Positions 6,001 through 9,000 of a stretch of 24,775 nucleotides of DNA are shown in pieces; position 1 is the stretch's first letter; each line of letters opens with the position of its first letter. The position numbers are program-made. The DNA lies in IMG/VR virus record IMGVR_UViG_2541047936_000008, positions 1 to 24,775 of that record. One strand, written 5' to 3'. Origin of the DNA: a virus. Its lineage: Duplodnaviria; Heunggongvirae; Uroviricota; Caudoviricetes.

Positions 6001-9000
6001 ATGCTGTCACCGATATTTTTAGTAGCACCATCTCCCATAAACCTGCTGGTCTGGGTTGGCTCGCGATCAATCATGGTGGCAAAGGAAGAATTCCCGCCAA
6101 CACCATCTCTCAGTTTTCTGGCGTTAGACCGCCGGATGTCATGGACTGTTTTCATAACGAAATTAAAACCTTTGTACCGATAGGGTACAAGTATCTTGAG
6201 GGTTCATCTCAATCATGTAATATGTATATCGGAGGTACATATTGTATGAAAGCGTATTGGGACTCTTTAACCAAAGAACAGCAGGGCGAGTTGGCCGGAA
6301 AAGTTGGCTCAACACCAGGCTACTTACGGCTAGTTTTCAATGGTTATAAAAAAGCCAGTTTTGTGCTGGCTAAAAAACTTGAGCAATGCACGTCAGGTGC
6401 AATTACGAAATCTGACTTAAGACCGGATATCTATCCGAAAGATTAACAGAACACCTTCAATTTTTAACCACAGAACGATGAGGCTAACCGTGGGTAAGCA
6501 TCACTGGAAAGTAGAAAAACAGCCTGAGTGGTACGTGAAAGCTGTCAGAAAAACTATCGCGGCGTTGCCGGGGGGTTACGCTGAAGCTGCTGAGTGGCTG
6601 GATGTAACAGAGAACGCTTTATTCAACCGCCTTCGTGCAGATGGCGATCAGATTTTCCCGCTGGGATGGGCAATGATTTTACAGCGCGCGGCTGGCACTC
6701 ACTACATTGCGGATGCTGTCGCACAGTCTGCTGGTGGGGTGTTTGTATCGCTTCCTGAAATTGAGGAAGTAGAGAACGCCGATATAAACCAGCGCCTGCT
6801 GGAAGTCATCGAACAGATCGGGAGTTACTCAAAGCAGATTCGTTCGGCAATCGAAGATGGGGTAGTGGAGCCACACGAGCAGACAGCAATTAATGATGAG
6901 TTGTATCTGTCAATTTCGAAGCTCCAGGAGCATGCAGCACTGGTCTACAAAATCTTTTGCGCTCCAGAAAAGAGTGACGCCCGCGAGTGTGCAGCTCCGG
7001 GCGTCGTGGCGTTTTGTGTCTGTGGAGAAACTAACGCATGAACAGTTTAACGGCAAATAACCGTTTGTCGCAACAGCTGGTGGTCAGCGTCGCTGAACAC
7101 CTGTTGTTACGGCATGAATGCAGATTACCAAATCACCTGGCTGTAAGTAACCACAGAGAACTTTACCTGACTGTGGGGGGCGAGTTGTGCAGGAACTTAA
7201 CCGCTGGTTTCGTGACGGAAGAGGACTTTATGTTCATGTTATTCGTTGGGAGCCAGAAACACAGCGCGTTATCTATCTTCGCAAAGACTACCCGCATGAG
7301 TGCTTTAGTCCTTTGTGGAAATTCAGGCGTGATTTTGTTGAGTGTGAAGGACCACCAGCACATTGATTCTGCCATTCCGGGACGTTACACTGTTCAGGCA
7401 CCTTATAAAGCGGGTGCCGGGATTGGCGTCCTGGAATTGATCAAGGCGATATATGACGCGCCAGCGTCTTTTTTATCGTCCGCATTTGCTCACATCAAAG
7501 TTATGGTGGGCTGGGCGGGGGCATCGAAAGATGCGCCGGTTTCCTTGATCACCGGTTACGCCAACCCCGTTCAGTTCACCACCAGCGAAATTGGCGTTTC
7601 CGGTGGTGGAAGTATTTCACCGATCAAGGAGGCTGCCATCATGGCTACTGTCCCAGCCCTCACTCGTCTGAATGATGAAGACTTACATAAACTCAGTTAT
7701 GTAACAACTGCACTACGTGCTCTGCGCAAGGTAACTCTTTCGGATCCGCAGGCACATCAGGTTCTGGTAGAAACCCTTCTTAACTTGCAAGCTGAACGTA
7801 TTCGTCTGGCGGATAAGGCTAATTTTCATATTCACCGTCTCCTGAATATCAGCGGAGGGCATCGTCATGCTTAATCCGTTGCTCCTCAACATTTACCGTT
7901 TATTTCAGCGTAAAAAAATATCAACACCCACAGTTGGGCAGTGGTACACCACGCCAGCAGGGCATGTTCTACGTGTCAGCCTGGTTGACTGTGAATGTCA
8001 GAAGGTGATTTGTGAACCGCTGGGCCGCAATTACCGCGTCAGTATGCCGCTTATTGCCTTTCGCTCCGGAAAAAACATGAAGCATCTCGGAGGTGCAGCA
8101 TGAGTATGGAGCTGATGGTTAAAGCGATGAAAATTCGAGTGGGTAATCCATTGCGAAAACTGGTTCTGATCAAGCTGGCTGATAATGCCAGCGATCAGGG
8201 TGAGTGCTGGCCCAGCTACCAGCATATTGCTGACCAGTGCGAGATTAGCAAACGTTCTGTGATGAATCATATTGCGGCCCTTTGTGATTCCGGGCTGGTA
8301 AAAAAAGTCACCCGGAAAGGTGAAAAAGGTAACTCAAGTAATATCTATCTCCTTCATCTTGATGGTGCAGGAGATTCACTAGGGGGTAGTGCAAATAATT
8401 CACTATCTAGTGCAGCAAATTCACCAGGTAGTGCAGGAGTTGCACCAGGGGGTGGTGCAGGAGATTCACCCAGAACCAGTCACTCTTTTGAACCAGTCAA
8501 AGAACCAGTCAATGAACCAATAGCTGTTGGTGCATCTGCTGATGAGTCCGTGCGAGTTCGTTCAAACCGACCGGAATACTCTCCGGAGTTTGAGCAGGCA
8601 TGGCTGGCATACCCCAAACGTGCTGGTGGCAATTCAAAATCTGCAGCCCTCAAAGCCTGGAAAGCTCGTTTGAATGAGGGGGTAAAACCCGAAACCATGC
8701 TGGAAGGTGTGAAACGCTACGCGGGCTGGGTATCTGCGATGGGTAACAGCGGCACACAATTTGTGAAACAGGCTGTCACGTTCTTTGGTCCGGATCGTCA
8801 TTTCGAAGAATCCTGGGAAGTTCCTGCGGTATCTGCAGCCAGACGCGAGGACCCGTACTTCAAAGCCAGTTACGACAACGTGGACTACAGCCAGATCCCG
8901 GCAGGATTCAGGGGGTGATCATGAGTCTTTTGAATGACGTTCAGAAATTCATTGAAGCCCATCCGGGGTGTACTTCCGGAGACATTGCGGATGCTTTTGC

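What the first reader, a model, noticed from the sequence alone, without database searches (positions are those of the whole stretch)
8361..8520. Iteron-like direct repeats embedded in the replication initiator gene
A 16 bp sequence GGTGCAGGAGATTCAC occurs twice (8364 and 8453), bracketing several ~21 bp units containing AGTGCA, followed by three or four GAACCAGTCA copies at 12-17 bp spacing. The repeats translate in frame into a low-complexity linker (GGSANNSLSSAANSPGSAGVAPGGGAGDS). This is the pattern of a lambda-type origin located inside the initiator gene.
Basis: partly seen in the sequence, partly recalled or inferred. Interest (0 to 1): 0.5.

Follow-up and report, generated by a model that had tools for sequence, protein, structure and literature searches.

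The report
Replication origin inside phage initiator gene
The repeats are real and are very probably the replication origin of an SfV-like (lambdoid) prophage, sitting inside the gene for its own initiator protein as in phage lambda; this is an expected arrangement, here in an initiator family whose origin I found no report of.

Summary
Five about 17-bp units (RGTGCA-N5-TKCACY) start at 8364, 8388, 8409, 8430 and 8454. Three exact GAACCAGTCA copies and one degenerate copy follow. All lie in frame in the disordered linker of a 272-aa winged-helix (Pfam HTH_36) replication initiator, 8100-8918.

The DNA itself is under selection. Across five enterobacterial genera, identical amino acids use the same codon in 100% of iteron codons and 92-100% of 12-mer codons. 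In both flanking domains the figure is 34-53%, although the linker peptide is less conserved than the N-terminal domain. Of 152 related genes, 123 carry a 21-25-bp array at the same place. Its sequence follows the N-terminal DNA-binding domain (partial r 0.64), not the C-terminal domain (0.11). Natural chimeras join this N-domain, repeats and 12-mer block to lambda O residues 159-299, followed by a lambda P homologue. The swap point is just past the right edge of ori-lambda's AT-rich block.

The lambda-type-origin reading is therefore supported by comparison, not by experiment. Three things differ from lambda: the initiator is not homologous to O, no P-like loader gene follows, and there is no classical AT-rich block. 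Instead there is a conserved 25-mer shared by many initiator variants. I rate it a new member of a known kind, of modest interest.

The parts
8100..8918 (+). Replication initiator gene (272 aa). It comprises an N-terminal winged helix, a disordered linker and a helical C-terminal domain.
   Evidence: ORF. HTH_36 at 43.5 bits and phrog_270 at E 1e-88. 98-99.5% nucleotide identity to the rep gene of phages 2H10, SfV (orf39), mEp460, cdtI, Stx2c phages and Stx2a_WGPS2. AlphaFold2: residues 1-86 have pLDDT 76-89, residues 91-165 are below 50, and helices span 162-238 at about 60.
8100..8360 (+). Coding region of the N-terminal winged-helix DNA-binding domain (aa 1-87), the presumed iteron reader.
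   Evidence: Foldseek hits to winged-helix proteins include DnaD-N (2v79) and plasmid initiators (4pt7, 5kbj). The helix H51-64, inferred to be the recognition helix, differs between iteron types.
8364..8380 (+). Iteron 1, GGTGCAGGAGATTCACT
8388..8404 (+). Iteron 2, AGTGCAAATAATTCACT
8409..8425 (+). Iteron 3, AGTGCAGCAAATTCACC
8430..8446 (+). Iteron 4, AGTGCAGGAGTTGCACC. It is the only unit with a perfect 5-bp dyad (GTGCA-N5-TGCAC).
   Evidence: matches on both strands
8454..8470 (+). Iteron 5, GGTGCAGGAGATTCACC
8471..8523 (+). 12-mer block: GAACCAGTCA at 8473, 8490 and 8502, plus a degenerate copy at 8514. It is 60% A+T with an A-rich top strand. It is the candidate unwinding or helicase-entry element, and it occupies the place of lambda's AT-rich block.
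   Evidence: The same codon is used in 92-100% of identical-amino-acid codons across genera.
8475..8499 (+). Universal 25-mer ACCAGTCACTCTTTTGAACCAGTCA. It is identical in initiator genes with 7 different N-terminal types and 10 unrelated C-terminal types.
   Evidence: Exact match, once each, in 147 of 266 fetched loci and in at least 120 viral contigs.
8355..8510 (+). Block under nucleotide-level constraint. Third-codon-position invariance across 5 genera is 0.8-1.0 for the 10-codon windows starting 8355-8475, tapering to 0.6 at 8490, against 0-0.3 in most of the rest of the gene.
   Evidence: (Fisher p about 1e-7)
8316..8363 (+). Least stable duplex in the neighbourhood (about 70% A+T), just left of iteron 1. 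It is an alternative unwinding site, but its sequence is not conserved.
   Evidence: dG40 of -45 kcal/mol against a window mean of -54.7; third-position invariance 0-0.1
8520..8918 (+). Coding region of the C-terminal domain, presumed to recruit the helicase. Its last 9 residues, SQIPAGFRG (8889-8915), match the C-terminus of E. coli DnaT in 8 of 9 positions.
   Evidence: The C-terminal tail type covaries with the downstream gene.

Best explanation
The segment of roughly 8361-8523 is the vegetative replication origin of an SfV-type lambdoid prophage. It is embedded in the linker-coding part of its own initiator gene.

Inferred mechanism. Dimers of the initiator's N-terminal winged-helix domain bind the five 17-bp iterons, which are spaced 21-24 bp apart, about two helical turns, as in ori-lambda. 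They build an O-some-like nucleoprotein complex. This destabilises neighbouring DNA, most likely the conserved 12-mer block immediately downstream. The C-terminal domain then brings in the replicative helicase. In this E. coli variant no phage loader or helicase gene follows, so the host DnaB-DnaC would be used. In Klebsiella, Citrobacter and phiP27 relatives, a phage DnaC-like and DnaB-like pair follows instead.

What is shown. The repeats exist. The DNA, not the peptide, is under purifying selection. Iteron type is inherited together with the N-terminal domain. The whole block substitutes for ori-lambda in natural O/P chimeras.

What is inferred. That the protein binds the iterons, where unwinding occurs, and how the helicase is recruited.
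For: (1) Five sites occur only in this stretch, against 0.15 expected. Tandem Repeats Finder detects both arrays.

(2) I compared the window with Klebsiella, Citrobacter, Phytobacter and Kosakonia homologues. The same codon is used in 24/24, 25/25, 24/24 and 19/19 identical-amino-acid codons in the iterons, and in 92-100% in the 12-mers. In the N- and C-terminal domains the figure is 34-53%. Amino-acid identity in the iteron part (53-68%) is lower than in the N-terminal domain (72-83%) (Fisher p about 1e-7). The constraint maps to 8355-8510.

(3) All five genera keep five units with spacing 24 or 21, then 21, 21, 24. 121 of 134 genes of this type have five units.

(4) 14 of 16 diverse homologues, including Paraburkholderia, Methylobacter and Myxococcaceae, have a 15-30-bp-period array in the linker. 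That is 1.23 arrays per kb, against 0.017 per kb outside the gene. The array is usually followed by a 12-15-bp repeat.

(5) Among 152 distinct related genes, 123 have a 21-25-bp array starting at nucleotide 263-398. Iteron similarity tracks N-terminal identity (Mantel r 0.71, partial r 0.64), not C-terminal identity (partial r 0.11). Pairs with the same N-terminal domain but unrelated C-terminal domains have iteron similarity 0.76, against a background of 0.47. Mosaic proteins P0064 and P0072 share the window's C-terminal half at about 98% but have other recognition helices and other iterons.

(6) Several sibling iteron types are significant palindromes, as expected for dimer binding sites.

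(7) In chimeras L165 and L141, the HTH_36 N-domain, iterons and SHS(L)EPV block are followed by lambda O residues 159-299 (61% identity, E 2e-67) and a lambda P homologue (56% identity, E 5e-92). The lambda iterons, which lie at O codons 117-145, are absent.

(8) The repeats encode a disordered linker with pLDDT below 40.

(9) No unusual RNA structure is predicted (z = -0.29), and there is no conserved overlapping ORF.
Against: There is no experimental origin mapping or binding data for this initiator family. I found no such report, and PMC8951638 states that nothing is known about replication proteins of non-lambdoid 'Eru' Stx phages.

There is no classical AT-rich unwinding element. The 12-mer block is 60% A+T here, and the 52 bp right of the array averages 48% across 123 genes, the same as the gene average.

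The dyad symmetry of this particular iteron type is weak: 5-bp arms with one mismatch, and 74% of shuffled units do as well.

The window contains no consensus DnaA box.

N-domain and iterons are physically adjacent, so part of their co-inheritance could reflect linkage rather than function.

The prophage in this window is deleted for late genes, so this copy may never fire productively.
Confidence: 0.8

Rival explanations
1. The repeats are only a low-complexity, length-variable protein linker made by slippage or unequal crossing-over. The DNA repeats are a by-product with no cis-acting role.
For: The repeats are in frame and encode a Gly/Ser/Ala/Asn-rich disordered linker. Copy number varies in steps of one or three units.
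Against: The peptide is less conserved than the flanking domain while synonymous positions are 100% conserved. Linkers of sibling types encode quite different peptides but keep the DNA architecture. Palindromic cores in sibling types have no protein-level rationale.
Confidence: 0.04
2. The iterons are binding sites of the initiator, but they serve regulation (autorepression of transcription through rep, copy control or handcuffing, or exclusion of related phages) rather than initiation. The true origin lies elsewhere.
For: Iterons serve control as well as initiation in the plasmid and lambda cases read here. PMC3349717 reports that cloned ori-lambda iterons inhibit replication of lambda-type phages. 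The missing AT-rich block fits a pure binding array.
Against: In the O/P chimeras the lambda iterons are gone, and these repeats with their conserved 12-mer block occupy their place. I saw no other repeat array in 60 kb of flanking DNA around 16 diverse homologues. The conserved 12-mer block next to the iterons is not explained by a pure operator role.
Confidence: 0.08
3. The 25-mer and 12-mer block (8471-8523) is conserved mainly because it is a module-junction sequence. It would be a short homology patch at which lambdoid phages recombine to shuffle N- and C-terminal halves, or a conserved peptide motif (RTSHSFEPV), rather than an unwinding element. This rival concerns only that sub-element and is compatible with the iterons being the origin.
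For: The exact 25-mer joins 7 N-terminal types to 10 unrelated C-terminal types. Mosaic breakpoints fall at or just after it. H128, S129, F130, E131, P132 and V133 are invariant at the protein level. The block is only 56-60% A+T.
Against: Synonymous positions in the block are 92-100% conserved across genera whose flanks have diverged. A peptide motif alone would not require that. Repeated recombination at the block could, however, contribute to its uniformity. Non-enteric relatives have other 12-15-bp repeats at the same place, which suggests a positional function.
Confidence: 0.25
4. The constraint comes from an RNA-level or overlapping-gene feature, such as mRNA structure, an internal start or an antisense ORF.
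For: Mechanical ORFs exist in other frames, for example 8389-8523 on the + strand.
Against: The RNA fold z-score is -0.29. Alternative frames are broken by stop codons in the window or in homologues. There are no promoter-like sites in 7800-9200 and no Rfam family there.
Confidence: 0.02

Closest known systems
ori-lambda inside gene O of phage lambda, and the type-specific origins of other lambdoid phages such as the 933W/P27 Stx phages
   Same: The origin lies inside the initiator gene, between the DNA-binding N-domain and the C-domain. Lambda's iterons lie at O codons 117-145 of 299; here they lie at codons 89-124 of 272. Lambda has 4 iterons spaced 20, 24 and 23 bp apart; here there are 5, spaced 21-24 bp apart. 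Iteron number varies between relatives and adds residues to the protein (PMC7466680). Iteron type goes with the N-terminal domain. Natural chimeras link this module to the lambda O C-domain and P.
   Different: The N-terminal domain is HTH_36/DnaD_N-like and has no detectable homology to lambda O (hhalign probability 0.65%). The C-domain here is not O-like, and no P gene follows. There is no 75-80% A+T block; a conserved 12-mer and 25-mer block at 56-60% A+T sits there instead. The dyad within this iteron type is weak.
RepA_N-family plasmid initiators of Firmicutes (pSK41/pTZ2162 type). What I say about their origins rests on my own knowledge.
   Same: They have a winged-helix N-domain. From my own knowledge, that domain binds iterons located centrally within the rep coding sequence, and the C-domain is host-specific and engages host replication proteins. 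Foldseek places the N-domain of this protein among winged-helix proteins that include the entries titled 'Structure of initiator' (4pt7), 'N-Terminal domain of DNA binding protein' (4pql) and 'Structure of Rep-DNA complex' (5kbj). I take these to be RepA_N-type plasmid initiators, from my own knowledge.
   Different: There is no Pfam RepA_N hit. The fold matches are weak (E about 0.01-0.05) and are shared with many unrelated winged-helix regulators. The host range differs, and this is a phage context.
Iteron plasmids with repeated 13-mers in the unwinding element (RK2 oriV, F, and oriC itself)
   Same: The layout is two-part: an array of initiator-binding iterons followed by a few short (12-13 bp) direct repeats. 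In RK2 and F the Rep protein binds one strand of the unwound DNA sequence-specifically (PMC4081077).
   Different: Those unwinding elements are AT-rich and intergenic. Here the 12-mers are only about 58% A+T and are coding. Binding of single-stranded DNA by this initiator is untested.
Intragenic origins of phages of Gram-positive bacteria (SPP1 gene 38/oriL, TP901-1, Tuc2009, A2). This comparison rests on my own knowledge.
   Same: Repeats bound by the initiator lie inside the initiator gene. Some of those initiators have DnaD-like domains, and this protein has a sub-threshold DnaD_N hit (23 bits against a cut-off of 27).
   Different: The protein families and hosts differ, and nothing was compared here at sequence level.

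Membership tests
Lambda-type (lambdoid) intragenic origin | An array of initiator-binding direct repeats inside the initiator gene, between the DNA-binding domain and the C-terminal domain | tested here: met
   Five units at 8364-8470, covering codons 89-124 of 272, lie in the disordered linker. For comparison, lambda's iterons lie at O codons 117-145.
Lambda-type (lambdoid) intragenic origin | Iterons spaced at about two helical turns | tested here: met
   Spacing is 24, 21, 21 and 24 bp here. Lambda's spacing is 20, 24 and 23 bp.
Lambda-type (lambdoid) intragenic origin | Each iteron has internal dyad symmetry, marking it as a dimer site | tested here: inconclusive
   In the window type, GTGCA-N5-TTCAC has one mismatch and is not above shuffles (p 0.74). 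Sibling types are significant palindromes, for example GGGCAG-gag-CTGCCC at p 0.018 and TGGGTGCTG-a-CAGCACCCA at p < 0.002.
Lambda-type (lambdoid) intragenic origin | An AT-rich unwinding block directly beside the iterons on the promoter-distal side | tested here: not met
   The block 8471-8522 is 60% A+T. Across 123 genes, the 52 bp right of the array averages 48% A+T, the same as the gene average. A conserved 12-mer and 25-mer block is present instead.
Lambda-type (lambdoid) intragenic origin | Iteron sequence is specific to, and inherited with, the initiator's N-terminal domain | tested here: met
   Partial correlation is 0.64 with the N-terminal domain and 0.11 with the C-terminal domain, over 123 genes. 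The mosaics P0064 and P0072 show the same.
Lambda-type (lambdoid) intragenic origin | The initiator is a homologue of lambda O (Pfam Phage_rep_O) | tested here: not met
   No Pfam hit. hhalign probability is 0.65%.
Lambda-type (lambdoid) intragenic origin | The initiator C-domain pairs with a P-type helicase loader encoded downstream | tested here: not met
   In this phage type the downstream genes are PerC-like and Dam. Related N-domain and iteron modules do occur fused to the lambda O C-domain with P downstream, or upstream of DnaC-like and DnaB-like genes.
Lambda-type (lambdoid) intragenic origin | Demonstrated origin activity, meaning autonomous replication or a mapped initiation site | not testable with these tools
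   This needs a plasmid replication assay, footprinting or marker-frequency analysis.
HTH_36 / phrog_270 phage replication initiators (SfV orf39, ST64B sb42 type) | Significant match to the family profiles over the whole protein | tested here: met
   PF13730 at 43.5 bits against a cut-off of 25. phrog_270 at E 1.1e-88 over residues 3-271. 97.8% amino-acid identity to the SfV rep gene (annotated orf39) and 86.8% to the ST64B gene.
RepA_N plasmid initiators | RepA_N domain match | tested here: not met
   No Pfam RepA_N hit. There is only a generic winged-helix fold resemblance.
DnaT (primosomal protein I), as some phage records annotate this gene | Homology to the DnaT three-helix-bundle domain that binds single-stranded DNA | tested here: not met
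   hhalign probability 0.17%. No Pfam or PDB sequence hit. Only the last 9 residues match, at 8 of 9.

The most novel reading that the evidence does not exclude
The conserved block just after the iterons, with the exact 25-mer ACCAGTCACTCTTTTGAACCAGTCA at its core, may be a portable, sequence-defined unwinding or helicase-entry element rather than an AT-rich one. At least 7 iteron specificities and 10 unrelated C-terminal modules share it. Either the invariant first 45 residues of these initiators or a host factor would read it, possibly as single-stranded DNA. In the loader-less E. coli variant, the initiator's DnaT-identical C-terminal tail (SQIPAGFRG) would tap the host's DnaT-dependent DnaB-DnaC loading route. 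Together these would make a lambdoid origin that initiates through a restart-primosome-like hand-off.
Probability: 0.2. Interest if true: 0.6.

Novelty: new member of a known kind. Interest (0 to 1): 0.33.

Why it matters
Origins inside initiator genes are textbook for lambda. The initiator family here (SfV, ST64B, mEp460, cdtI, Stx2c phages and the 'Eru6' reference Stx2a phage) is widespread in E. coli, Shigella and Salmonella prophages, including Shiga-toxin phages. For the non-lambdoid 'Eru' replication regions of Stx phages, PMC8951638 states that nothing is known about the replication proteins.

Locating the cis-acting origin gives three things. It gives iteron consensus sequences for several specificity types. 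It gives a conserved 25-mer that marks such origins in sequence data. It gives a direct design for origin and incompatibility experiments.

It is also a clean example of dual coding: the peptide drifts while the DNA is frozen. That can mislead dN/dS analyses and codon-optimisation of such genes.

Tried and rejected
Homology to lambda O: none.

Homology of the C-domain to DnaT or DnaD, as some annotations claim: not supported by hhalign, Pfam or PDB sequence searches. Only the 9-residue tail matches.

Structure prediction of the C-domain was too uncertain (pLDDT about 60) for fold assignment. The fold search returned only winged-helix matches for the N-domain.

RNA explanations: no Rfam family in the region and an unremarkable fold energy.

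Overlapping ORFs are not conserved. There are no promoter-like sites and no consensus DnaA box in the whole window.

A classical AT-rich unwinding element was looked for on both sides. Only a moderately AT-rich, non-conserved stretch on the left was found, and nothing consistent on the right.

Literature. Searches for the iteron and 25-mer sequences, SfV orf39, 'initiator-solo' modules and Eru replication regions found no description of this origin. The SfV genome paper is not held. The 'P27' O protein studied in PMC7466680 is lambda-like. It is not the HTH-domain protein L17 of record NC_003356, which carries this family's C-domain.

TRF at these settings did not report lambda's own iterons. 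Absence of a TRF hit in a homologue is therefore not evidence of absence.
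Full report
OBSERVATION.

Tandem Repeats Finder reports a period-21 array at 8365-8470 (4.8 copies) and a period-12 array at 8490-8519. The pattern GTGCAN5TKCAC has five + strand sites, all between 8365 and 8469, and none elsewhere in the 24.8-kb window. The expectation from shuffles is 0.15. Units start 24, 21, 21 and 24 bp apart. GAACCAGTCA is exact at 8473, 8490 and 8502, with a degenerate fourth copy at 8514. Everything is in frame in ORF 8100-8918.

THE GENE AND ITS SETTING.

The 272-aa product matches Pfam HTH_36 above threshold and phrog_270 'replication initiation protein' at E 1e-88. AlphaFold2 gives a confident winged helix for residues 1-86, a disordered stretch for residues 91-165, and a moderately confident helical C-domain. 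The repeats therefore encode the disordered linker. The fold search finds only winged-helix proteins, among them DnaD-N and plasmid initiators.

The gene lies in a lambdoid early-right operon. The order is a cI-like S24 repressor at 5481-6155 (-), then on the + strand the cro-position ORF, a CII-like gene, an Ash-family gene, a small ORF and rep. The gene is 98-99.5% identical to the rep gene of phages 2H10, SfV (orf39), mEp460, cdtI, fifteen Stx2c phages and Stx2a_WGPS2. Stx2a_WGPS2 is the reference phage for 'Eru6' in PMC8951638.

In those phages the next genes are PerC-like and Dam. No P, DnaC-like or DnaB-like gene follows.

IS THE DNA, RATHER THAN THE PEPTIDE, CONSERVED?

I aligned the window gene codon by codon with homologues from Klebsiella (L105), Citrobacter (L106), Phytobacter (L084) and Kosakonia (L089).

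- In the N- and C-terminal domains, 34-53% of codons for identical amino acids are the same codon.
- In the iteron part the figures are 24/24, 25/25, 24/24 and 19/19.
- In the 12-mer part they are 92-100%.
- Amino-acid identity in the iteron part (53-68%) is lower than in the N-domain (72-83%). Fisher p is about 1e-7.

Third-position invariance across the five genera is 0-0.3 along most of the gene and 0.8-1.0 only for the windows spanning codons 86-135, that is 8355-8510. All five genera keep five units with almost the same spacing. Of 134 genes of this type, 121 have five units, with a range of 3-8. Phage cdtI has eight.

A recent transfer of the block cannot explain this. The N-domain codons immediately upstream are already saturated with synonymous change.

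IS THE ARCHITECTURE GENERAL?

Using the C-domain as bait, I fetched 20 diverse genomic loci. Their initiators have several unrelated N-terminal domains. Fourteen of 16 have a 15-30-bp-period array in the linker, against one array in 60 kb of flanking DNA. The array is usually followed by a 12-15-bp repeat. Examples:

- GTCCCGA-a-TCGGGAC units, then ACAAAAGAAAACCTA, in Paraburkholderia.
- GTTACTGA..TCGGTAAC units, then CATAGAACAGAC, in Methylobacter.

Several of these cores are significant palindromes. The window's own unit is only a weak pseudo-dyad.

COVARIATION.

Proteins P0064 and P0072 share the window's C-terminal half at about 98% identity but have other recognition helices. Their linkers carry other repeats: GGGGCAG-gag-CTGCCCC and CTGTGC-N9-GCATAG.

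With two more scans I collected 152 distinct genes of related N-terminal types. Of these, 123 have a 21-25-bp array starting at nucleotide 263-398.

- Iteron similarity follows N-domain identity (Mantel r 0.71; partial r 0.64 given the C-domain).
- It does not follow C-domain identity (partial r 0.11).
- Pairs with the same N-domain but unrelated C-domains have iteron similarity 0.76, against 0.47 for unrelated pairs.

The array is flanked by both domains. The consistent placement of mosaic joints downstream of it therefore argues for functional coupling with the N-domain. Linkage may still contribute.

SUBSTITUTION FOR ORI-LAMBDA.

Viral contigs L165 and L141 encode chimeric proteins. Residues 1-142 are this kind of N-domain, iterons and the SHS(L)EPV block (47% identity to the window protein over that part). 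Residues 144-284 are lambda O 159-299 (61% identity, E 2e-67). The next gene is a lambda P homologue (56% identity, E 5e-92).

In lambda the iterons occupy O codons 117-145. From the sequence read, the AT-rich block ends near codon 158. The module found here therefore replaces exactly 'O N-domain plus iterons plus AT-rich block'. These phages have no lambda iterons left. This is the strongest in-silico argument that the repeats are the origin.

THE 12-MER BLOCK.

It sits in genes with 7 N-terminal clusters and 10 mutually unrelated C-terminal clusters.

It sits where lambda has its AT-rich block, but it is only 56-60% A+T. Across the family there is no consistent AT-rich stretch to the right of the arrays. 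The least stable duplex nearby, 8316-8363 at 70% A+T, is to the left and is not sequence-conserved.

I therefore treat the unwinding site as unresolved. The conserved block is the best candidate. It may also, or instead, be a recombination junction or encode a peptide motif.

PARTNER MODULES.

- C-terminal tails ending ...SGFSEQDYG..DCNW are followed by a 292-aa DnaC-like gene in 10 of 10 loci. Where the fetched locus extends further, a DnaB-like gene follows that.
- Two of three Paraburkholderia versions (L093, L096) are followed by a large ORF that I read by eye as primase-helicase-like; I did not scan it against a profile library.
- The E. coli version, ending YSQIPAGFRG, has none of these. 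Its last nine residues match the last nine of E. coli DnaT in 8 of 9 positions. The core domain shows no significant similarity to DnaT. This is a lead for how a loader-less module recruits DnaB-DnaC. It is not a finding.

RIVALS.

- A purely protein-level linker is excluded by the synonymous-site pattern.
- RNA structure (z = -0.29), overlapping ORFs, promoters and Rfam families give nothing.
- A purely regulatory binding array cannot be excluded without experiments. It fits poorly with the chimeras and with the absence of any other repeat array near the diverse homologues.

COMPARISON WITH WHAT IS KNOWN, AND NOVELTY.

The element works like ori-lambda in position, spacing, N-domain specificity, variable copy number and modular exchange with O/P. 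It fails three lambda membership features: initiator homology, a P partner here, and an AT-rich block.

It also resembles iteron plasmids with short repeats in the unwinding element (PMC4081077). From my own knowledge, it resembles RepA_N plasmids and several Gram-positive phages whose origins lie inside rep genes.

I found no description of this origin or these sequences in the searchable literature. PMC8951638 says the replication proteins of such Stx phages are unstudied.

I rate it a new member of a known kind. It is solidly supported by comparison, untested at the bench, and of modest interest.

CONTEXT OF THIS COPY.

Homology to lambdoid early regions stops at about 9105-9108, inside the PerC-like gene. 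It resumes in the middle of an SfV-type tail sheath gene. The window is therefore an SfV-like prophage that, judged against the SfV record's coordinates, has lost roughly 16 kb. From the usual lambdoid and SfV gene order, that stretch would hold the late regulator, lysis, packaging and head genes. The rep gene and origin are intact. This copy could at most support in-situ replication after derepression.

Noticed in passing
window 7398-7474 and 7499-7586 (+): Rfam gathering-score hits to isrK (64 bits) and C4 antisense RNA (82 bits) lie back to back inside the long ORF 7038-7874, whose C-terminal half is Phage_ASH. They suggest a P1/P7-style c4/ant-type immunity RNA module in the early-right operon, just upstream of rep.
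   Followed up: no
window 9105-9108: There is a deletion junction here. Similarity to lambdoid early regions of E. coli genomes and phages ends, inside the PerC-like gene that starts at 8921. An SfV/SfI/SfII-type tail sheath gene continues from its middle, followed by the tube and tape-measure genes. The prophage lacks about 16 kb of late genes and is probably defective. No complete E. coli genome in the collection covers 80% of 5400-12400 in one place.
   Followed up: partly
window 8889-8915 (last 9 codons of rep): The C-terminal nonapeptide SQIPAGFRG matches the C-terminus of E. coli DnaT (SQIPPGFRG) in 8 of 9 positions, and both are the extreme C-terminus. The rest of the C-domain shows no significant similarity to DnaT. 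Rep variants with this tail have no phage DnaC-like or DnaB-like gene downstream.
   Followed up: partly
loci L083-L100, L105, L106, L108 (downstream of the rep homologues): The extreme C-terminal tail of the initiator covaries with the next gene. Tails ending ...DYGxxDCNW are followed by a DnaC-like AAA+ gene in 10 of 10 loci, and by a DnaB-like gene where the locus extends far enough. Paraburkholderia tails are followed in two of three loci by a large ORF that looks primase-helicase-like by eye. Methylobacter-type tails are followed by a 244-267-aa protein, similar in both loci, that I did not search against any family library.
   Followed up: partly
L165 1201-2660 and L141 (IMG/VR contigs): These are natural chimeric initiators. 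An HTH_36 N-domain, GGGGCAG-type iterons and an SHSLEPV block are fused to lambda O residues 159-299 and followed by a lambda P homologue. The HTH_36 origin module and the lambda O/P module are therefore interchangeable.
   Followed up: yes
L110 3671-3904 (E. coli K-12 e14, pseudogene oweE): The e14 cryptic prophage carries the first 78 codons of an initiator with a third N-terminal type, like phiP27 L17. It is fused to a terminase fragment. The break lies upstream of where the origin repeats would be, so e14 has lost its origin.
   Followed up: partly
window 7867-8103 (+): A 78-aa ORF (phrog_1153, function unknown) overlaps the rep start codon by 4 bases (ATGA). It accompanies rep in SfV, mEp460 and cdtI. 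No gene is called in the corresponding gap upstream of the Klebsiella homologue.
   Followed up: no
L107 2501-3169 (phage Min27 'O'): The annotated 222-aa 'O' of Stx phage Min27 has the GGGGCAG-iteron N-module. After the 12-mer block it runs into a sequence unlike any C-domain seen here, and its tail looks like an out-of-frame read. A large 'P' gene follows. This may be a frameshift or a mis-annotation.
   Followed up: no
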